A DNA stretch of 47,527 nt from Octopus sinensis (taxonomy: Eukaryota): NCBI RefSeq assembly GCF_006345805.1, contig NW_021834189.1, positions 1-47,527 on the forward strand, in the 5' to 3' direction. Shown here one piece after another: positions 25,108 through 47,527 of this stretch. The translations under genes were made by a program, and so were the position numbers. Within the stretch, counting starts at the first letter, position 1. Every line of letters starts with the position of its first letter. The notes under the pieces are model-generated. The model was given only the letters and a program-made list of their open reading frames with translations. It made no database searches and was not told the origin of the DNA.

Positions 25108-25868
25108 GAGCTATCTCTTTATAGACGAAGTTCAGTTGCAATTGGAGGAGGTGAATCTCATAAGAATGGGGAACACAAACAACAACAAATAGATTGTACG
25201 TTATATATTTCTTTACTACCCACAAGGGGTTAAACACAGAGGGAACAAACAAGGGCAGACAAACGGATTAAGCCGATTACATCGACCCCAGTGCATAATT
25301 GGTACTTAATTTATCGACCCCGAAAGGATGAAAGGCAAAGTCGACATCGGCGGAATTTGAACTCAGAACGTAACGGCAGACGAAATACCTATTTCTTTAC
25401 TACCCACAAGGGATTAAACAAGGACAGACAAACGGATTAAGCCGATTACATCGACCCCAGTGCGTAACTGGTACTTAATTTATCGACCCCGAAAGGATGA
25501 AAGGCAAAGTCGACCTCGGTGGAATTTGAACTCAGAACGTAACGGTAGACGAAATAGAGCTACGCATTTTGCTTGGCGTGCTAATGTTTCTGCCAGCTCG
25601 CCACCTAATAGATTGTACGTGATAATGAAACTCTTTTAAAAGTAGTGAAATGCCACAGCAACATTGAAATCGTTGCCTCGATGAGGTCAGTTAAGCACAT
25701 CACAAAGTACACACTGAAAGGAAATGACTAAGCTACCATTCAAATAAACAATGATAATGAAGTTAGTCAATATCTAATGGGTAGGTGTACTGGACCATCT
25801 GAAGTGGTTGCATCCATTTTAGGATTTTCAATTCATGAAAGAGCACCTGCAATAGGGAGACTGCAACA
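25108..25868 (+). pseudogene. Helitron Rep-domain fragment interrupted by a SINE
   Basis: LYRRSS..GG, NK*IVRDNETLLKVVKCHSNIE, SVKHITKYTLKGND and EVSQYLMGR..GPSEVVASILGFSIHER match the Helitron Rep region (HINVE, KYxxKG, ExxWRI..F.IHER). Confidence 0.8.
25202..25606 (-). mobile_element. Meta-domain SINE with tandemly repeated body inside one 14-bp TSD
   Basis: Head-bearing unit at about 25391-25606 plus head-less unit at about 25207-25390; TSD AATAGATTGTACGT at 25188-25201 and 25607-25620. Confidence 0.85.
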
Positions 25869-31840: not shown

Positions 31841-34677
31841 GTGTGCATTATGTGGTCGGTCGGTTCAGCTGAAAATATGCACACCTATGTTAAAAGTGCT
31901 GGCAAGTTTGCATGACAACTATTTTTTTCCTCAAATTAAAGGCGTGACCTCTACGACAAAATTCCTCAACTTATAAAATGTGACTCCAGTAGACCCGAAT
32001 GAAATCGGGTTATATTAATCAAAATGTGAAAAGGGGTCTAGAATTATCATTGCCACAACTTATGTATATGTCTTCCTCACTCACTCACTCTTTTTCCTAA
32101 TGATAATTAGCATCGCCACCACCACCACCACCAACACACAATCATGACAATCTTTCTCTTAAAACAAATCATGTTTACATTGCAAAAACGGAAACAATTA
32201 CGCGAGATGAACCAAGATTTTTGCCTGAACAAAGAGAGATTTATAATGAAATTATTGACAGTGTTAGATTGAACCAAGGAAAGCTTTTCTTTTTGAATGC
32301 TCCAGGTGGTACTGGTAAAACTTTCGTTATCAATTTGATTCTCGCAAAGCTGCGCGCTGAACGTCGAATTGCCATTGCATGTGCCTCAAGTGGTATTGCT
32401 TCAAGGCGGCCGTACGGCACATAGTGCATTCAAATTGCCCATGGACATTGGAAAAAAAGATAATCCTATATGTAATATAGATCGTAGTTCCTCAAGAGCA
32501 AGACTTCTTCGTGAATGCAGTCTTTTTATTTGGGATGAGGCTACAATGAGTAATAAGGCCATGTTTGAGGCTCTTGACAGAACTCTCCAAGATTTGCGTC
32601 ACAATACAAAAATAATGGGTGGAGCTACGTTTCTCATGGCAGGAGATTTTCGACAAACTCTTCCTGTTGTCCGAGCAGGCACTAGAGCCGATGAGGTTAA
32701 TGCATGTATAAAGCATTCTTATGTATGGCACAGTGTTATCAGTCGCCATCTTCAAACAAACATGAGAGTCCACCTACATGGTGATGTGGAGTCTGAGGCT
32801 TTCGCAAAACACCTATTAGATCTTGGTGATGGAGTTTTGCCTTTCGTTGATGATGAGCATATTCGGTTGCCTTTTGGGAATTTCGTTCCAAATGTAGAAG
32901 AACTTATAAGAGCCGTTTTACCTGACGTCGAAACCAACTTCCAGGATCTCGATTGGCTAAGAGCAAGAGCTATTCTATCGCCTCATAATACAACAGCTGA
33001 TGCTACAAATAAACAAGTGCTTGATATGATTCCTGATGAGATAGTTTCTTTCATGTCCATCGATACAAATAAAGATGAGAATGATGCAGTCAAATATCCA
33101 CCCGAGCTACTCAACAAGCTAACACCTCCGAGACTTCCACCTCATCATTTGTGTTTGAAAGTTGGTGCTCCAATCATGGTGCTCAGAAATATGGAAACGC
33201 CTGAAATATGCAATGGAACCCAAATGGTTATAAGGAGGATTCAAAGCCATGTTATAACTGCTGAAATTTTGAGTGGACCATTTGTAGGAACAATGAAGAT
33301 GATACATAAAATGAGTATTTCACCCTCTGATGTTCCCATTCAGTTTAAACGCTTTCAATTTCCGATAAAACTATGCTTCGCGATGACAATCAACAAGTCA
33401 CAGGGACAGTCACTGGACATTGTAGGCATTAACCTGTCACAACCGGTTTTCAGTCATGGTCAATTGTACGTAGCCTGTTCTCGAGTTGGAAATCCACATA
33501 AACTCTTCATTCTTGGCAATCATGAGCGCACAAGGAATGTGGTTTATCAGGAGGCTCTGACAAAAGAAAACTGATTGTAAGTCATGAAATTTTGCTTGAT
33601 TTTTTATTTTGCACCTCTTCATTATCTCTTCATTCTTGAAAATAAAGACATTCAAAAGAACATGGTTCATAAAGAACATTGGGTTCAGATGTTTGCAAAC
33701 ATTTGATCCTACTCGTTCTCTTTATTCCTCATTTTCCGATTCCTTCTACGTCTCCATTAAACGGTTTTGTCAAGTTATTGTTTCTTCGCTAACATAAAGT
33801 GAATGAGTTGTTAATTACATTTTATACACTATTCCATTGTTTAGGTGGTGTCGAAAGAACTGGCATGTGTCACCATATTAACTCTCTCAGTCAAACTCCC
33901 ACTCATGAGTTCACGTCGTGATACTCTTTCTACAAAACTGAGCTGGGTATGAATTCTAATTTCATACACTATTACAGATGTGAGTTTAAATTCTGCCTTT
34001 TTTGGTTTAAACTATCTTCCTGAAGGTTAAAAAAATTCTTTTTTTTAGAGTCCTCTACAATATTCGCCACCGAAATTCCATTTTTCACTTTTATGATTAT
34101 ACCCAGAGTGCTCTAATCGAATATGAACTGTCTTCCCATTGGCGGACGTTTGTCTTTTTTTATTTTTGAAACAAACACATTGCCTATTTCGTTTTAAAAC
34201 AATACTACTTTAATACATTGGTCCAACAAACAAAACATCACCCACTCTCATTCTTTTATGAATCTGTCTTCCTCCATCACTCACTCTCTTTTCTCCCTTC
34301 CTTTCAATTTCTATCTATAACGTCGTTTCACAGCGTCTACCTCACTTACATTCACTTTATAACGTCGTTTCACAGCGTCCGTTATCCCCCCTCCCTGCCT
34401 TCCACAGCGCTTTCACACACTCTCACTCTCTATGTCTGTCTGCATTCATAGAGAGAATTATCATCGCCACGACCAACACACAATCATGACAACAAATATT
34501 ATGAATCAGATATTTATTGGGTTAATTTATATATGTGTGTGTATCTATATATAATAATGTATATATACAAAGTGTATATATCTGTATGTATATATATATA
34601 TATAATTTGTATACATTTATATATATATATATATACCACACTCTTACCCGCGCGTGGAGCGGGTCACCTTCAGCTAG
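31073..34677 (+). mobile_element. Internally deleted Helitron carrying the helicase domain
   Basis: Probable 5' end A|TCTCTATTTATAAAACTG; 3' hairpin ACCCGC-GCGTGGA-GCGGGT (34646-34664) then CTAG|T at 34674-34678; PIF1 helicase inside. The 5' boundary is less certain. Confidence 0.7.
32221..33574 (+). pseudogene. Helitron PIF1-family SF1 helicase, frameshifted near 32400, Rep half absent
   Basis: APGGTGKT (Walker A), ASSGIA then frameshift to GGRTAHS, WDEATM, GDFRQTLPV, NMR, LKVGAPIMVLRN, RFQFP..FAMTINKSQGQS, HGQLYVACSRV and TRNVVY. Confidence 0.92.
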
Positions 34678-35451: not shown

Positions 35452-35760
35452 TAGTTTTTTTACACGCGTAACAATTAAATTAATTTAACAATTAAGAAAA
35501 AAAAATTAGGGTTAAGGTGAGGGTTAGGGTTAGTGACAGGATGTTGTCTCAGTTTTAGACGCAGCAAATGATTTTAGCTCAAAAGAGAGCATAGGATTGG
35601 TTAAAATTAAACTACGTTAAACAAACGAATTACAAATTTATCAAGAAAGCCAAGTGAAAATAATGTTTTCTTTTGACAAATTCTACCAGTATACGAAGTT
35701 TTAAAGTGTTTAGTTAACTAGAAATTGTGTTGAAATCTGGCCTTCAAAAGGAAAAGATCC
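35452..35760 (+). mobile_element. Orphan right end (TIR) of a Merlin-family element
   Basis: About 35560-35760 is a diverged reverse complement of 38192-38400 and ends ...GGCCTTCAAAAGGAAAAGATCC; short TTAGGG-like run at about 35506-35534. Confidence 0.75.
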
Positions 35761-36548
35761 TCAGAATGTACAAAAATGGCAAACAATACTGGGAAGAAGG
35801 AAAAATTGTAACATACATAGGAAGAATGATGTATGGGGTGAAAAGCAGAAATGGAATGGAAAGGGGACATAGAAGTCAGCTTAAGGAAAGAATCATAGAA
35901 AAGGAACCAACAAGAGTAGAAAAACTGATGGATTGGCTTTATGACACTATTCAGGTTCCAACAAGAAGTCGAAACCACACGAACAAGAAAAAGAAAGAAC
36001 ATTGAATTCTTAAAAGTAGACCCTAAGAAGAAAATATATTGAGTGTATAAAAAAAAAGAGGAGGTGGAATGAATAAAAGAAATTGATTGTTAAATAAAAT
36101 GATTAAAATGGGAGATGTATAGTGAAACTGTTTACCCCTCCTTGTAAAAAGTGGTAGGAATCAGCCATTATAAATAGACCAGTAACTAGTTGTCACGAGA
36201 GGGTCGAGAGTCAAAGAGTTGAGGGTCGATAGTTCTAGTCGGTGTCTTGTGGAGCAATCAGCGATAGTAAGACAGTGTATAAAAAAAAAGAGGAGGTGGA
36301 ATGAATAAAAGAAATTGATTGTTAAATAAAATGATTAAAATGGGAGATGTATAGTGAAACTGTTTACCCCTCCTTGTAAAAAGTGGTAGGAATCAGCCAT
36401 TATAAATAGACCAGTAACTAGTTGTCACGAGAGGGTCGAGAGTCAAAGAGTTGAGGGTCGATAGTTCTAGTCGGTGTCTTGTGGAGCAATCAGCGATAGT
36501 AAGACAGAGGAAGTTCCTGTATTACTATTCCAGTACAAACAGATACAA
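35761..36548 (+). mobile_element. Gypsy-like LTR retrotransposon 3' end: integrase C-terminus, PPT and LTR with a 232-bp tandem duplication
   Basis: WEEGKIVTYIGRMMYGV...HRSQLKER resembles a Gypsy integrase tail; AAAATGGGAGA|TGTA at 36116; TATAAATA at 36169; 36042-36275 is repeated at 36274-36507. Confidence 0.65.
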
Positions 36549-37789: not shown

Positions 37790-38191
37790 ATGTAGAATAT
37801 TTCTTTATTCACCATAAGGTTGAGAAAAAGAGGGGACGATACGAGGACAGACAAAACAAACATTGGGGTCAGGGTATCGAATGAGACGAAACGTATGAAT
37901 AAACAAACAATTAAAATATATACAATTAAATGAGAATGAGTGATTAACAAAAAATGAAGCGGAGGACCCCACAAACCACATACTCACACTGAAGATTTTG
38001 CTTTCTCCTTTTTATATATTCTCGTTTAAACAGGTTCTTTCACTCGCAACATAGTTGCTATAGACTTCCATCTTTTACAAAACACACTTTGCGACAGGCA
38101 TTTCTTCTCCAGTCTTATTTTCCGTTTCATGTGGAAAACGAAAAAGTCGATTAGCTCAAGACTGGAGATGAATATGCCTGTTGCAATTCCT
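37790..38191 (-). pseudogene. 3' end of a second, divergent L1/Tx1-like LINE, cut off at the Merlin TIR
   Basis: GIATGIFISSLELIDFFVFHMKRKIRLEKKCLSQSVFCKRW aligns with GLETNTFLSGQSLNFFKYHLKRKVRVERQVLSSECF of the 27945-28394 ORF. Confidence 0.75.
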
Positions 38192-38400
38192 GGATCTTTT
38201 CATTTTGAAGGCCAGATTTTTCGGATTTTTCTAGTTAACTAAATAATTTGAAACTTCGTATACTAGTAGAATGTGTCAAAAGAAAACATTAATTTCAACT
38301 AGTTTTTTTGAGAAAAATGTATTTTATAAGTTTAAACGTAGTTTAAATCTACGAATTTTAACCAATCGTATTGTCTGTTTTCATTTGAAATCATTAACTG
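38192..38400 (+). mobile_element. Left terminal inverted repeat of Merlin DNA transposon
   Basis: Starts GGATCTTTTCATTTTGAAGGCCAG; homology to the 35560-35760 end stops exactly at GG; interrupts a LINE ORF; lies about 500 bp upstream of an IS1595-like transposase. Confidence 0.75.
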
Positions 38401-38699
38401 CATAATGTTACTGTGACGTAGACAGCTATTTTGTGAAAATTTGAAACAGCTATCGTTTGAAAATTTTAAACAGAGTCATTTAAAATTTTATACAAAACAA
38501 ATTTTTAATTTATTAGTTTAATGTGTCTTCCTTCATTTATTAAATGTGTATTGTATAAAAGTATTGCCTTGTAGACAGCTATCGTTTGAAAATTTTAAAC
38601 AGCGTGTGTAAGTAAGCAAAACAGAGGCATTTAAAATTTTATACAAAACTAATAACTTAGCTGTTTTACAAACAATAATTTTTAAATTCGTTGTTTAAA

Positions 38700-39559
38700 A
38701 TGGCGAGTCTAGGTGAATTGTTTGTTACGATAAAATCGGAGGCAGCAAAGGGTATTATACCTAGCAGTAAGAAGTGTAAAAAAGGGGGCACCAAATGATA
38801 AAGAAATTGGTAGCGAATAATGTTTGCTGGCGGTGTACCCGCAAAGGCTGCGATCAGAAGTTGTCTGTCCGGAAGGGAACATGGCTTGAAGGCTGCACGC
38901 TCCCTCTGCGGACTGTAGTCCTTCTTTTGTACTCTTGGGTCAAGGAACTGACTACAGTGCATTATTGTGTACAAGAACTGGGGATGAGCCACGCTTCAGC
39001 TGTGGATTACAACAATTATGTGCGAGAAATATGCGCGCATGGCTTGCTAATGAACCCAGTTGTAATAGGTGGTCCTGGGAAGATTGTCGAGATAGACGAG
39101 ACAGTCTTCTCTAGGAGGAAGTTTAATCGAGGAAGGGTGTTACCTCAGCAATGGGTATTCGGTGGGGTGTGTCGTGAGACCAGAGAAGTTTTCCTTTATG
39201 CAGTACCTTCTCGGAATCGCGACACACTCGAAGAATGCATCCGTCACTCGATCCTCCCAGGTACCACAATATTTAGTGACCTGTGGAGGGCTTATTCGCA
39301 TATTCCAGAGATCGAGGGATACAATTTTTGACATAGAACGGTGAACCACAGCGTCGAGTTTGTTAACTCCGTTGACAAAACACATACCCAACAAATAGAG
39401 AGCACTTGGGCGTGTTTAAAACGGGGTAACAAGCGGCGTTGTGGTACACATCGTTCTACGATTGACTCGTATCTCTGCGAATTCATGTGGCGGCGCAGAC
39501 ACGAGAAAAGTGACCTTTAGGAGAAATTGCTGGCAAACATTAGAAATTTCTCCAATTAG
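38700..39559 (+). pseudogene. Merlin / IS1595 (ISXO2-like) DDE transposase pseudogene
   Basis: N-terminal Cys/His region (KCKK, GHQM, WRC, GC..KLSVRKGTW), [57 protein letters not shown] and SYLCEFMWR. Frameshift near 38790 and stops at 39329 and 39518. Confidence 0.92.
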
Positions 39560-39655
39560 TTAATCCTTTCGGTACTATATTTCTGCCCAAAATACACTCC
39601 TCATAGGTTTCAATTGAATTGTAAATTAATCATAAATATAGACTAGTTTCCTTTG

Positions 39656-39743
39656 AACTGGGTTCATTAGCAGGTCATGTGTGCCTATTCCTCGCACATA
39701 AGTGTTATAGGCCACAGCTGCATTGTGGCTCACCCCCAGTTCT
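39656..39743 (-). repeat. Inverted, diverged copy of transposase segment 38974-39061
   Basis: Ungapped 88-bp alignment with 74/88 identities; encodes ELGVSHNAAVAYNTYVRGIGTHDLLMNPV versus ELGMSHASAVDYNNYVREICAHGLLMNPV. Confidence 0.93.
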
Positions 39744-39880
39744 ACTAAGGTTGTGGGTAACCACAAGATTTTTTTTTTTTTGTCCAGCTTCTTCACATTC
39801 TGCGTAACAGTTTGTTTCCGCAGTGATCACTTCAAATAAGCATGCTGAAAAATTGTTAATAACAAAAAATTGTTCATAAA
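39737..39880 (-). pseudogene. piggyBac-like (PGBD) transposase relic
   Basis: FYEQFF...FSACLFEVITAETNCYAE... then, after a frameshift in an A13 run, ILWLPTTLVEL; resembles the piggyBac N-terminal FF....IV.ETNRYA...W.PTT..E pattern. Confidence 0.5.
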
Positions 39881-40195
39881 AACATTTTTAAAGTTTTTAC
39901 AACATTATGGTGTAAATCGTCTTGTTGCCTCTTTCAGTTTCTTCAGAATCACTGCTTTCCCCTTTCATTCTTTTAAATATATTTGTGTAGGAATTGCCAA
40001 TTTCTTCTTCATGCCCTTACTTACAATTCTTAGTGCACGTTTTTTTCAGTGCTGCCGGGGTCGATATATTAAGTACCCGTTGCTTACTGGCCACATTGTA
40101 ATCGACTGGCGCACTTCCTCCAAAATTTCGGAACTTCTCCCAAGACTACCAAAAGAGGAAATTAAAAATTGATACAATCACTGTTTGTATCTTTC

Positions 40196-43100
40196 AATGA
40201 CACCATTGACTCTTCTTGTATACTTTGCATTTGCATCACAAGTTATGATATCCTGCATGCATCTATGTACCCTGCTTTCAAAGGTATTACACACCTGTTG
40301 CATAATTGCAGTGGTTCCATTGAATCTTCTTGTATTCTTTGCATTTGCATCACAAATTGTAATATCCTGCATGCATTTATGTACCCTGCTTCCAAATGTA
40401 GTACACACCTGTTGTACTATTGCAGTGCCTCCATTGACTCTTCTTGTATTCTTTGCATTTGCATCACAAATTGTAATATCCTGCTTGCATCTATGTACCC
40501 TGCTTCCAAATGTATTACACACCTGTTGCACAATTTCAGTGCCGCCATTGACTCTTCTTGTATTCTTTGCATTTGCATCACAAATTGTAATATCCTGCTT
40601 GCATCTATGTACCCTGCTTCCAAATGTATTAAACACCTGTGGTACAATTGCAGTGCCTCCATTGACTCTTCTTGTATTCTTTGCATTTGCATCACAAATT
40701 GTAATATCCTGCTTGCATCAATGTACCCTGCTTCCAAATGTATAACACACCTGTGGTACAATTGCAGTGCCTCCATTGACTCTTCTTGTATTCTTTGCAT
40801 TTACATCACAAATTGTAATATCCTGCATGCATCTATGTACCCTGCTTCCAAATGTATAACACACCTGTTGTACAATTGCAGTGCCTCCATTGACTCTTCT
40901 TGTATTCTTTGCATTTACATCACAAATTGTAATATCCTGCATGCATTTATGTACCCTGGTTCCAAATGTATTACACACCTGTGGTACAATTGCAGTGCCG
41001 CCATTGACTCTTCTCGTATTCTTTGCATTTGCATCACAAATTGTAATATCCTGCTTGCATCTATGTACCCTGCTTCCAAATGTATAACACACCTGTTGTA
41101 CAATTGCAGTGCCTCCATTGACTCTTCTTGTATTCTTTGCATTTACATCACAAATTGTAATATCCTGCATGCATTTATGTACCCTGGTTCCAAATGTATT
41201 ACACACCTGTTGTACAATTGCAGTGCCACCATTGACTCTTCTTCTATTCTTTGCATTTGCATCACAAATTGTAATATCCTGCTTGCATCTATGTACCCTG
41301 CTTCCTAATGTATTACACACCTGTGGTACAATTGCAGTGCCGCCATTGACTCTTCTTGTATTCTTTGCATTTGCATCTCAAATTGTAATATCCTGCATGC
41401 ATCTATGTACCCAGCTTCCTAATGTATAACACACCTGTGGTACAATTGCAGTGCCGCCATTGACTCTTCTTGTATTCTTTGCATTTGCATCTCAAATTGT
41501 AATATCCTGCATGCATCTATGTACCCTGCTTCCTAATGTATTACACACCTGTGGTACAATTGCAGTGCCGCCATTGACTCTTCTTGTATTCTTTGCATTT
41601 GCATCACAAATTGTAATATCTTGCTTGCATCTATGTACCCTGCTTCCAAATGTATTACACACCTGTGGTACAATTGCAGTGCCTCCATTGACTCTTCTTG
41701 TATTCTTTGCATTTGCATCACAAATTGTAATATCTTGCTTGCATCTATGTACCCTGCTTTCAAATGTATTACACACCTGTGGTACAATTGCAGTGCCTCC
41801 ATTGACTCTTCTTGTATTCTTTGCATTTGCATCACAAATTGTAATATCTTGCTTGCATCTATGTACCCTGCTTCCAAATGTATTACACACCTGTGGTACA
41901 ATTGCAGTGCCTCCATTGACTCTTCTTGTATTCTTTGCATTTGCATCACAAATTGTAATATCTTGCTTGCATCTATGTACCCTGCTTCCAAATGTATTAC
42001 ACACCTGTGGTACAATTGCAGTGCCTCCATTGACTCTTCTCGTATTCTTTGCATTTGCATCACAAATTGTAATATCCTGCTTGCATCTATGTACCCTGCT
42101 TCCAAATGTATTACACACCTGTGGTACAATTGCAGTGCCTCCATTGACTCTTCTTGTATTCTTTGCATTTGCATCACAAATTGTAATATCTGCTTGCATC
42201 TATGTACCCTGCTTCCAAATGTATTACACACCTGTGGTACAATTGCAGTGCCTCCATTGACTCTTCTTGTATTCTTTGCATTTGCATCACAAATTGTAAT
42301 ATCTTGCTTGCATCTATGTACCCTGCTTCCAAATGTATTACACACCTGTGGTACAATTGCAGTGCCGCCATTGACTCTTCTCGTATTCTTTGCATTTGCA
42401 TCACAAATTGTAATATCCTGCATGCATTTATGTACTCTTCTTCCTAATGTATAACACACCTGTGGTACAATTGCAGTGCCGCCATTGACTCTTCTTGTAT
42501 TCTTTGCATTTGCATCTCAAATTGTAATATCCTGCATGCATCTATGTACCCTGCTTCCTAATGTATTACACACCTGTGGTACAATTGCAGTGCCGCCATT
42601 GACTCTTCTTGTATTCTTTGCATTTGCATCACAAATTGTAATATCTTGCTTGCATCTATGTACCCTGCTTCCAAATGTATTACACACCTTTGGTACAATT
42701 GCAGTGCCTCCATTGACTCTTCTTGTATTCTTTGCATTTGCATCACAAATTGTAATATCCTGCTTGCATCTATGTACCCTGCTTTCAAATGTATTACACA
42801 CCTGTTGTACAATTGCAGTGCCGCCATTGACTCTTCTTGTATTCTTTGCATTTGCATCACAAATTGTAATATCCTGCTTGCATCTATGTACCCTGCTTCC
42901 AAATGTATTACACACCTGTGGTACAATTGCAGTGCCTCCATTGACTCTTCTTGTATTCTTTGCATTTACATCACAAATTGTAATATCCTGCTTGCATCTA
43001 TGTACCCTGCTTCCAAATGTATTACACACCTGTTGTACAATTGCAGTGCCGCCATTGACTCTTCTTGTATTCTTTGCATTTGCATCACAAATTGTAATAT

Positions 43101-46100
43101 CCTGCTTGCATCTATGTACCCTGCTTCCAAATGTATTACACACCTGTTGTACAATTTCAGTGCCTCCATTGACTCTTCTTGTATTCTTTGCATTTGCATC
43201 ACAAATTGTAATATCCTGCTTGCATCTATGTACCCTGCTTCCAAATGTATTACACACCTGTTGTACAATTTCAGTGCCTCCATTGACTCTTCTTGTATTC
43301 TTTGCATTTGCATCACAAATTGTAATATCCTACTTGCATCTATGTACCTTGCTTCCAAATGTATTACACACCTGTTGTTCAATTGCAGTGCCTCCATTGA
43401 CTCTTCTTGTATTCTTTGCATTTGCATCACAAATTGTAATATCCTGCTTGCATCTATGTACCCTGCTCCCAAATGTATTACACACCTGTTGTACAATTTC
43501 AGTGCCTCCATTGACTCTTCTTGTATTCTTTGCATTTGCATCACAAATTGTAATATCCTGCTTGCATCTATGTACCCTGCTTCCAAATGTATTACACACC
43601 TGTGGTACAATTGCAGTGCCTCCATTGACTCTTCTTGTATTCTTTGCATTTGCATCACAAATTGTAATATCCTGCTTGCATCTATGTACCCTGCTTCCAA
43701 ATGTATTACACACCTGTGGTACAATTGCAGTGCCGCCATTGACTCTTCTTGTATTCTTTGCATTTGCATCACAAATTGTAATATCCTGCATGCATTTATG
43801 TACCCTAGTTCCAAATGTATTACACACCTGTGGTACAATTGCAGTGCCGCCATTGACTCTTCTTGTATTCTTTGCATTTACATCACAAATTGTAATATCC
43901 TGCATGCATTTATGTACCCTGCTTCCAAATGTATTACACACCTGTGGTACAATTGCAGTGCCTCCATTGACTCTTCTTGTATTCTTTGCATTTGCATCAC
44001 AAATTGTAATATCCTGCTTGCATCTATGTACCCTGCTTCCAAATGTATTACACACCTGTGGTACAATTGCAGTGCCGCCATTGACTCTTCTTGTATTCTT
44101 TGCATTTGCATCACAAATTGTAATATCCTGCTTGAATCTATGTACCCTGCTTCCAAATGTATTACACACCTGTGGTACAATTGCAGTGCCGCCATTGACT
44201 CTTCTTGTATTCTTTGCATTTGCATCACAAATTGTAATATCCTGCTTGAATCTATGTACCCTGCTTCCAAATGTATTACACACCTGTGGTACAATTGCAG
44301 TGCCGCCATTGACTCTTCTTGTATTCTTTGCATTTGCATCACAAATTGTAATATCCTGCTTGAATCTATGTACACTGCTTCCAAATGTATTACACACCTG
44401 TGGTACAATTGCAGTGCCGCCATTGACTCTTCTTGTATTCTTTGCATTTGCATCACAAATTGTAATATCCTGCTTGAATCTATGTACCCTGCTTCCAAAT
44501 GTATTACACACCTGTGGTACAATTGCAGTGCCTCCATTGACTCTTCTTTATTCTTTGCATTTGCATCTCACAAATTGTAATATCCTGCTTGAATCTATGT
44601 ACCCTGCTTCCAAATGTATTACACACCTGTGTACAATTGCAGTGCGCCATTGACTCTTCTTGTATTCTTTGCATTTGCATCACAAATTGTAATATCCTGC
44701 TTGCATATATGTACCCTGCTTCCAAATGTATTACACACCTGTTGTACAATTTCAGTGCCTCCATTGACTCTTCTTGTATTCTTTGCATTTGCATCACAAA
44801 TTGTAATATCCTGCTTGCATCTATGTACCCTGCTTCCAAATGTATTACACACCTGTTGTACAATTTCAGTGCCTCCATTGACTCTTCTTGTATTCTTTGC
44901 ATTTGCATCTCAAATTGTAATATCCTGCATGCATTTATGTACTCTTCTTCCTAATGTATTACACACCTGTTGTACAATTGCAGTGCCGCCATTGACTCTT
45001 CTTGTATTCTTTGCATTTGCATCACAAATTGTAATATCCTGCATGCATTTATGTACTCTTCTTCCTAATGTATTACACACCTGTGGTACAATTTCAGTGC
45101 CTCCATTGACTCTTCTTGTATTCTTTGCATTTGCATCTCAAATTGTAATATCCTGCATGCATTTATGTACTCTTCTTCCTAATGTATTACACACCTGTGG
45201 TACAATTGCAGTGCCGCCATTGACTCTTCTTGTATTCTTTGCATTTGCATTTCAAATTGTAATATCCTGCATGCATTTATGTACTCTTCTTCCTAATGTA
45301 TTACACACCTGTGGTACAATTGCAGTGCCGCCATTGACTCTTCTTGTATTCTTTGCATTTGCATCACAAATTGTAATATCCTGCTTGCATCTATGTACCC
45401 TGCTTCCAAATGTATTACACACCTGTGGTACAATTGCAGTGCCGCCATTGACTCATCTTGTATTCTTTGCATTTGCATCACAAATTGTAATATCCTGCTT
45501 GCATCTATGTACCCTGCTTCCAAATGTATTACACACCTGTTGTACAATTGCAGTGCCTCCATTGACTCTTCTTGTATTCTTTGCATTTGCATCACAAATT
45601 GTAATATCCTGCTTGCATCTATGTACCCTGCTTCCAAATGTATTACACACCTGTTGTACAATTGCAGTGCCGCCATTGACTCTTCTTGTAATCTTTGCAT
45701 TTGCATCACAAATTGTAATATCCTGCTTGCATCTATGTACCCTGCTTCCAAATGTATTACACACCTGTTGTACAATTTCAGTGCCTCCATTGACTCTTCT
45801 TGTATTCTTTGCATTTGCATCACAAATTGTAATATCCTGCTTGCATCTATGTACCCTGCTTCCAAATGTATTACACACCTGTTGTACAATTGCAGTGCCG
45901 CCATTGACTCTTCATGTATTCTTTGCATTTGCATCACAAATTGTAATATCCTGCTTGCATTTATGTACCCTGCTTCCAAATGTATTACACACCTTGTACA
46001 ATTCAGTGCCTCCATTGACTCTTCTTGTATTCTTGCTTTGCATCACAAATTGTAATATCCTGCTTGCATTTATGTACCCTGCTTCCAAATGTATTACACA

Positions 46101-47527
46101 CCTGTTGTACAATTTCAGTGCCTCCATTGACTCTTCTTGTATACTTTGCATTTGCATCACAAATTGTAATATCCTGCTTGCATCTATGTACCCTGCTTCC
46201 AAATGTATTACACACCTGTTGTACAATTTCAGTGCCTCCATTGACTCTTCTTGTATTCTTTGCATTTGCATCACAAATTGTAATATCCTGCTTGCATCTA
46301 TGTACCCCTGCTTCCAAATGTATTACACACCTGTTGTACAATTGCAGTGCCTCCATTGACTCTTCTTGTATTCTTTGCATTTGCATCACAAATTGTAATA
46401 TATCCTGCTTGCATCTATGTACCCTGCTTCCAAATGTATTACACACCTGTTGTACAATTGCAGTGCCTCCATTGACTCTTCTTGTATTCTTTGCATTTGC
46501 ATCACAAATTGTAATATCCTGCTTGCATCTATGTACCCTGCTTCCAAATGTATTACACACCTGTTGTACAATTGCAGTGCCTCCATTGACTCTTCTTGTA
46601 TTCTTTGCATTTGCATCACAAATTGTAATATCCTGCTTGCATCTATTACCCCTGCTTCCAAATGTATTACACACCTGTTGTACAATTGCAGTGCCGCGGC
46701 CATTGACTCTTCATGTATTCTTTGCATTTGCATCACAAATTGTAATATCCTGCTTGCATCTATGTACCCTGCTTCCAAATGTATTACACACCTGTTGTAC
46801 AATTTCAGTGCCTCCATTGACTCTTCTTGTATTCTTTGCATTTGCATCACAAATTGTAATATCCTGCTTGCATCTATGTACCCTGCTTCCAAATGTATTA
46901 CACACCTGTTGTACAATTTCAGTGCCTCCATTGACTCTTCTTGTATTCTTTGCATTTGCATCACAAATTGTAATATCCTGCTTGCATCTATGTACCCTGC
47001 TTCCAAATGTATTACACACCTGTTGTACAATTTCAGTGCCTCCATTGACTCTTCTTGTATTCTTTGCATTTGCATCACATCACAAATTGTAATATCCTCT
47101 TGCAATCTATGTACCCTTCTTCCACATGTATTACACACACCTGTTGTACAATTGCAGTGCCTCCATTGACTCTTCTTGTATTCTTTGCATTTGCATCACA
47201 AATTGTAATATCCTGCTTGCATCTATGTACCCTGCTTCCAATGTATTACACACACCTGTTGTACATTGCAGTGCCTCCATTGACTCTTCTTGTATTCTTT
47301 GCATTTGCATCACAAATTGTAATATCCTGCTTGCATCTATGTACCCTGCTTCCAATGTATTACACACCTGTTGTACAATTCAGTGCCTCCATTGACTCTT
47401 CTTGTTTCTTTGCATTTGCATCACAAATTGTAATATCCTGCCTGCTTCATCTATGTACCTGCTTCCAAATGTATTCACACCTGTTGTACAATTTCAGTGC
47501 CTCCATTGACTCTTCTTGTATTCTTTT
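40196..47527. repeat. 114-bp tandem repeat array, about 64 copies, running off the window end
   Basis: Unit CCATTGACTCTTCTTGTATTCTTTGCATTTGCATCACAAATTGTAATATCCTGCTTGCATCTATGTACCCTGCTTCCAAATGTATTACACACCTGT(G/T)GTACAATTGCAGTGCC(T/G). The first units are diverged and there are no unique spacers. Confidence 0.98.

What the first reader, a model, noticed from the sequence alone, without database searches (positions are those of the whole stretch)
38192..47527. Merlin (IS1595-like) transposon that appears to carry a >7 kb 114-bp tandem array as cargo
Seen: a TIR starting GGATC at 38192 cuts a Tx1-like ORF mid-domain, followed by an ISXO2-type transposase pseudogene. I found no matching right TIR (...GAAAAGATCC) before the homogeneous 114-bp array that starts at about 40196 and fills the rest of the window. 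Known: Merlin elements have GG-starting TIRs and 8-9 bp TSDs, and some carry internal tandem repeats. Inference: the array lies inside the element, making this a satellite-seeding or satellite-carrying transposon of over 9 kb. The layout of transposase, then antisense transposase fragment, then array is unusual.
Basis: partly seen in the sequence, partly recalled or inferred. Interest (0 to 1): 0.75.

Follow-up and report, generated by a model that had tools for sequence, protein, structure and literature searches.

The report
Satellite born inside giant Merlin transposons
A 114-base repeat sits at one fixed spot inside a family of unusually large (17-31 kb) Merlin jumping genes, as a single unit or less in the intact copies but 36 to over 64 units in three damaged ones, so the transposon likely scattered the seed and the long arrays likely grew afterwards in place.

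Summary
The array lies inside the Merlin element, but 'seeding' fits better than 'carrying'. The window is a whole contig that ends in the array, so I used sibling copies. All 163 exact genome matches to a 25-base unit motif lie in six loci of this family. At all 19 array-end junctions the unit runs into one shared internal sequence. Of 12 copies with both ends found, 11 have 8-9-bp TSDs, span 17.3-30.9 kb and hold 0-1.5 units. One of them has the window's layout: transposase piece, antisense piece, unit. Old copies hold 1-3 units of 114-139 bp. Long arrays occur at three loci (64 plus likely 23, 76, 36 units), carry private variants and are rejected as one clade (p-AU 0.0005). None has a proven matching right end. 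The likely far half of the window's array (on C15) loses homology 4,076 bp on; I found no right TIR, TSD or LINE continuation. Precedent: Tetris; proposed for Merlin by Lopes 2021. The scan had not noted this DNA before.

The parts
37794..38191 (-). 3' fragment of a high-copy LINE, cut off at the Merlin end (insertion site, or a 5'-truncated LINE)
   Evidence: 1,125 first-look candidates, 40 scored at 92-100%
38184..38191 (+). candidate left TSD CAATTCCT; no right partner found
38192..38436 (+). left terminal inverted repeat (about 245 bp, GG start), shared with 1.0-1.4-kb MITEs and 17-31-kb elements
38700..39559 (+). Merlin (DDE_Tnp_IS1595) transposase pseudogene: frameshift near 38780-38800, stops at 39329 and 39518
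39656..39743 (-). inverted 88-bp copy of transposase 38974-39061 (84%), also in sibling copies
39744..40202 (.). spacer before the array, 92-94% alike in C1, C4 and C11486 copies
40203..47526 (.). 114-bp tandem array, 64 units, cut by the contig end; likely continues into 23 units at C15:14114992-14117661 (minus)

Best explanation
The window holds the left part of a broken copy of a giant Merlin DNA transposon family, and the 114-bp array is an internal site of that family that likely amplified in place after the copy had landed. Steps: (1) shown: a single segment lies at this site in three old copies, and 2-3 tandem units of 114, 118 or 139 bp in others; (2) shown: copies with 0-1.5 units transposed as 17-31-kb units with 8-9-bp TSDs, and inferred: the transposase came in trans, since no close transposase copy is intact; (3) inferred: at three loci the short seed grew to 36, 76 and at least 64 (likely 87 or more) units by unequal exchange or slippage, with local spread of new variants; (4) shown for the assembly only: these three copies lack a proven matching right end, so they are likely immobile.
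For: 163 of 163 exact motif matches lie in family loci. 19 of 19 array-end junctions lead into the shared interior. TSDs at 11 of 12 two-ended copies: nine 8/8 (one of them inside a TA run, so uninformative), one 7/8, one 9-bp. C11486 has the window's order of parts, 1.5 units and a perfect TSD over 30,878 bp. Unit series 1, 2, 3 in old copies with periods 114-139. The three long-array copies are rejected as one clade on 1.7 kb of flank (3 rows against 24, p-AU 0.00045); the closest flank to the 36-unit copy is a one-unit copy (1.2% apart). Private variants: one in 45 of 76 C1 units, another in 18 of about 36 C3 units, neither seen in the eight other loci counted. Consensus units differ by 5-9 bases between loci and 0 between the window and C15 halves.
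Against: The short copies nearest to long arrays could be contractions: C8700 lost its array end by deletion, and C11486 shares the start junction and four variant sites with C1. So one or two early expansions followed by shrinkage is not excluded. The family is mosaic (several left modules, ends that differ from interiors), so the flank tree may not track the array; deep nodes are weak (33-84). Missing right ends are not special to long arrays: TSDs were found for only 11 of 27 other copies looked at, several not fetched to full length. The link between window and C15 halves rests on identical consensus, orientation and gap position, not on a spanning read; one variant in 22 of 65 window units is in 0 of 24 C15 units. 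C3 has a possible composite right end (see rival).
Confidence: 0.72

Rival explanations
1. Satellite-carrying transposon: long arrays were moved as cargo, and short copies are later contractions.
For: The family moves 17-31-kb units, so a 4-10-kb array would fit. At C3 a MITE-type right end 8.5 kb behind the array is followed by GAGAGGGG, and the same or a 7/8 word precedes the damaged left end. C1/C11486 and C3/C8700 share unit variants.
Against: 0 of 11 TSD-bounded copies hold more than 1.5 units. The three arrays have private variants and are not one clade. The C3 right end belongs to a 1-kb MITE with its own left end, differs from the C3 left end at 5 or more outer bases (family mean 1.2), and the word is low-complexity.
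Confidence: 0.17
2. The array is an independent satellite or a coding repeat (38-residue units) next to or inserted into a Merlin.
For: 114 is a multiple of three, and four of six frames of the consensus unit have no stop.
Against: The unit is found only at one site of this family. Older periods are 118 and 139. Variants are not clearly synonymous-rich in any frame: 5-15 of 38, expected fractions 0.16-0.26. All six frames carry 37-112 stops over the region. Pfam hits to the repeat frames have no passing stretch.
Confidence: 0.04
3. Assembly artefact: the array length or the tnp-array join is a product of long-read assembly.
For: The window is an unplaced contig duplicating C15 at 99.3-99.9%; indels crowd its last units; both C15 ends stop at gaps.
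Against: The same join exists in C1, C4 and C11486. Units differ in patterned ways. Contigs of independent short-read runs cover the unit at far greater summed depth than the flank.
Confidence: 0.04

Closest known systems
Tetris and its TIR-220 satellite, Drosophila virilis (PMC4079207; read abstract, outline and first part of Discussion)
   Same: Non-autonomous TIR element with short internal repeats; arrays of up to 66 copies grew inside it; the authors suggest long arrays disrupt transposition; ends shared with a MITE.
   Different: Tetris is a foldback (suggested Mutator) element with the repeats inside its TIRs. Here the repeat is internal, 2 kb from the end, the superfamily is identified by a transposase, one-unit ancestors survive, and the elements are 17-31 kb.
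Merlin families with internal tandem repeats (Lopes et al. 2021, PMC8101967; read passages and second part of section 11)
   Same: GG-starting imperfect TIRs, 8-9-bp TSDs, DDE_Tnp_IS1595; internal repeats that vary between copies (3 vs 4 units of 163 bp). The paper proposes that Merlin spreads proto-satellites that are later amplified and homogenised.
   Different: The passages read report only a few units per copy. Here the later step is seen: 36-76 units at three loci. Its S1 Table of Repbase families was not read and may hold longer cases.
Oversized cargo-bearing DNA transposons such as Pack-MULEs and 16-20-kb En/Spm of Chondrus (review PMC6431247; passages only)
   Same: TIR-bounded elements packed with foreign DNA and moved in trans; the review treats over 20 kb as giant, counting the internal coding region.
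   Different: The word Merlin does not occur in that review's main text. The cargo identified here is decayed LINE sequence, not host genes.

Membership tests
Merlin superfamily | DDE_Tnp_IS1595 transposase with D, D, E | tested here: met
   PF12762 27.1 bits, cut-off 27, E 4.8e-6; three motifs visible in a broken frame
Merlin superfamily | TIRs starting 5'-GG, 24-462 bp | tested here: met
   GGATC ends; about 245-bp imperfect TIRs, outer 24 bp nearly perfect, in 12 sibling copies; only the left one in the window
Merlin superfamily | 8-9-bp TSD | tested here: met
   11 of 12 two-ended sibling copies
Merlin superfamily | Right TIR and TSD at the window's own copy | tested here: not met
   may be deleted or lie in an assembly gap
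Transposon-seeded satellite (Tetris type) | Unit present at low copy inside intact elements | tested here: met
Transposon-seeded satellite (Tetris type) | Long homogeneous arrays flanked by element sequence | tested here: met
   C1 76 units and C3 36 units with both flanks; window and C15 halves with one flank each
Transposon-seeded satellite (Tetris type) | Expansion after insertion | tested here: inconclusive
   favoured; contraction of short copies not excluded
Transposon-seeded satellite (Tetris type) | Heterochromatic location, cytological confirmation | not testable with these tools
   needs FISH or chromatin data
Satellite-carrying transposon | A long array between matched TIRs and TSD | tested here: not met
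   0 of 3 long arrays proven; C3 ambiguous

The most novel reading that the evidence does not exclude
This is a giant Merlin vehicle (up to 31 kb) with an internal hot spot that has turned into a satellite three times independently, to lengths well beyond the assembly and differing between individuals or species, and that can re-launch a grown array by borrowing a nearby MITE end (the C3 case). It would then both seed and ferry satellites.
Probability: 0.2. Interest if true: 0.7.

Novelty: new variant of a known kind. Interest (0 to 1): 0.5.

Why it matters
It gives the whole series from one internal segment to multi-kb arrays in one genome, with about 25 sibling insertions that did not expand as controls. 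That makes the proto-satellite idea proposed for Merlin testable: which copies expand, when, and whether expansion follows loss of mobility. It also shows a cut-and-paste Merlin moving 17-31-kb blocks of nested LINE debris, a size I found no report of for this superfamily (searches; Repbase and Feschotte 2004 were not available).

Tried and rejected
Right junction of the window's copy: two pattern searches (5 hits, none followed by the LINE; 1 hit, at the C19 copy's left end) and BLAST of a full element and of the LINE continuation over 100 kb of C15 found none. Right end of the C1 copy: none in 37 kb fetched behind the array or by pattern (45 hits, none near). Coding repeat: rejected. Expression: no RNA holder listed; no evidence either way. 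Array size from sequencing runs: summed contig depth over the unit was 210,000-695,000 against about 1,300-2,200 on the shared flank in run X1, and the letter typical of C1/C3 units made up 1.2% (X1), 0.5% (X3), 1.9% (X2) and 39% (X7) of depth at one site, against 112 of about 199 units in the assembly. A simulation gave about 11-fold inflation from overlapping contigs and the tool warns that this depth is no copy number, so it is only a hint that the window-type array is longer than assembled. Intact helper: of 150 scored candidates none at 84% or more had a full open frame; the nearest open 317-codon frame is 72% alike. Pfam on 12 cargo frames: 4 hit LINE domains (RVT_1, endonuclease), 8 nothing; hAT-like and mariner-like pieces are my reading from recall. 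One row (C4e, 390 bases covered) was dropped from the tree.

Full report
Observation. The window is the whole contig C10660 of a 2.7-Gb genome. Earlier scan notes call this genome an octopus; I did not test that.

The locus. Window bases 623-39136 match C15:14.325-14.366 Mb at 99.3-99.9%, and C15 stops at an N gap at window position 39136, inside the transposase. About 250 kb to the left, next to another gap, C15 has 23 units on the minus strand whose consensus is identical to the window's, while the C1 and C3 arrays differ by 5 and 9 bases. The simplest reading, inferred and not bridged by a read, is that the contig between the two gaps is flipped and these 23 units are the far end of the window's array. 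The variant patterns do not overlap, so the array would have at least 87 units. Behind it the family's interior runs for 4,076 bp and stops; nothing more of the element, no matching right TIR and no LINE continuation occur in the next 85 kb or by genome-wide pattern. One LINE relative is truncated at the same base, so the LINE break need not mark a Merlin insertion.

The family. Walking sibling copies beyond the array showed an interior shared at 92-98% by at least 40 loci (40 scored of 938 candidates) that ends at a right TIR. Twelve copies had both ends; 11 have TSDs of 8-9 bp and span 17.3-30.9 kb, and C2 has matched TIRs but no TSD. Four of these spans include unfetched middle stretches and are coordinate lengths. 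The interior of one 20.5-kb copy contains LINE reverse-transcriptase and endonuclease frames, so the cargo is nested transposon debris. MITEs of 1.0-1.4 kb share the ends. Most two-ended copies have lost the transposase part; C11486 keeps the window's order of parts, with 1.5 units and a perfect TSD. No close transposase is intact among 150 scored candidates, so movement was likely in trans.

The repeat. An exact 25-base motif has 163 genome matches, all in six family loci; a similarity search scored all 23 candidates, and the 19 array-end junctions all continue into the shared interior. The most divergent copy (C9718) and two others hold one segment; others hold 2 units of 139 bp, about 3 of 118 or 114 bp, or 1.5. 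Long arrays exist at C1 (76), C3 (36) and the window. Unit periods that are not multiples of three, stops in all frames and no clear synonymous bias argue against a protein.

Seeded or carried. TSD-bounded copies hold 0-1.5 units. The three long-array copies are not one clade on the flank tree (27 rows, p-AU 0.00045) and have private variants spread through 45 of 76 and 18 of about 36 units, which shows turnover in place after the copies split. None has a proven right end: C1 loses homology 10 kb behind the array, and C3 after 2.5 kb, followed by a MITE whose right flank resembles C3's left flank, which I count as unresolved. Against this reading, the nearest short copies could be contractions, the elements are mosaic, and many short copies also lack a found right end. 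I put growth in place at 0.72 and carriage of long arrays at 0.17. The expansion mechanism (unequal exchange or slippage) is inferred from general knowledge and the Tetris discussion, not tested.

Sequencing runs. Contigs identical or nearly so to a stretch specific to this copy (about 38410-38770) occur in four runs from three organism labels. Depth over the unit hints at longer arrays than assembled and at differences between samples, but the tool says it is no copy number.

Comparison. It works like Tetris and TIR-220 (PMC4079207: abstract, outline, first part of Discussion) and realises the proposal in PMC8101967 (passages and part of section 11). It is a Merlin by transposase, ends and TSD. 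I found no report of Merlin elements of this size or with arrays this long in six searches (listings only), in passages of PMC6431247 or of the octopus repeat annotation PMC13282606, where Merlin appears only as a table row. No supplements were read; the S1 Table of PMC8101967, Repbase and Feschotte 2004 could hold earlier cases.

Verdict. A real feature and a clear example of a known route to new satellite DNA, in a superfamily where it had been proposed, with an unexpected giant carrier. Interest 0.5.

Noticed in passing
12 two-ended family copies (G000 C1, C2, C4, C5, C7, C8, C16, C19, C28, C8700, C11486): The outer 24 bases of left and right TIR agree within a copy (mean 1.2 mismatches) far better than between copies (4.4; 0 of 10,000 permutations), although interiors are 95-98% alike. 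This suggests conversion between the two ends or repeated swapping of ends.
   Followed up: partly
   Followed up: partly
window 35553-35760: A lone right-TIR-like end of a related element, 2.4 kb upstream of the left TIR and facing away; no partner or TSD in the window.
   Followed up: partly
G000:C15:14117762-14365552: Probably flipped in the scaffold: its right end stops inside the transposase and its left neighbour begins in the array on the minus strand.
   Followed up: partly
window 32339-33574: 411-codon open frame with PIF1 helicase domains, likely a Helitron piece.
   Followed up: no
window 36042-36507 and 25235-25556: Perfect 232-bp tandem duplication, and a 169-bp near-duplication.
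   Followed up: no
L108 (G000:C1 about 139838883-139839611): A 656-bp left end of the family and a short end sit behind a nearly full copy instead of its right end, suggesting rearrangement at the termini.
   Followed up: no
G000:C27:10839731-10840270 (L188): Related Merlin transposase, 72% alike, in an open 317-codon frame; a possible helper or tamed gene.
   Followed up: no
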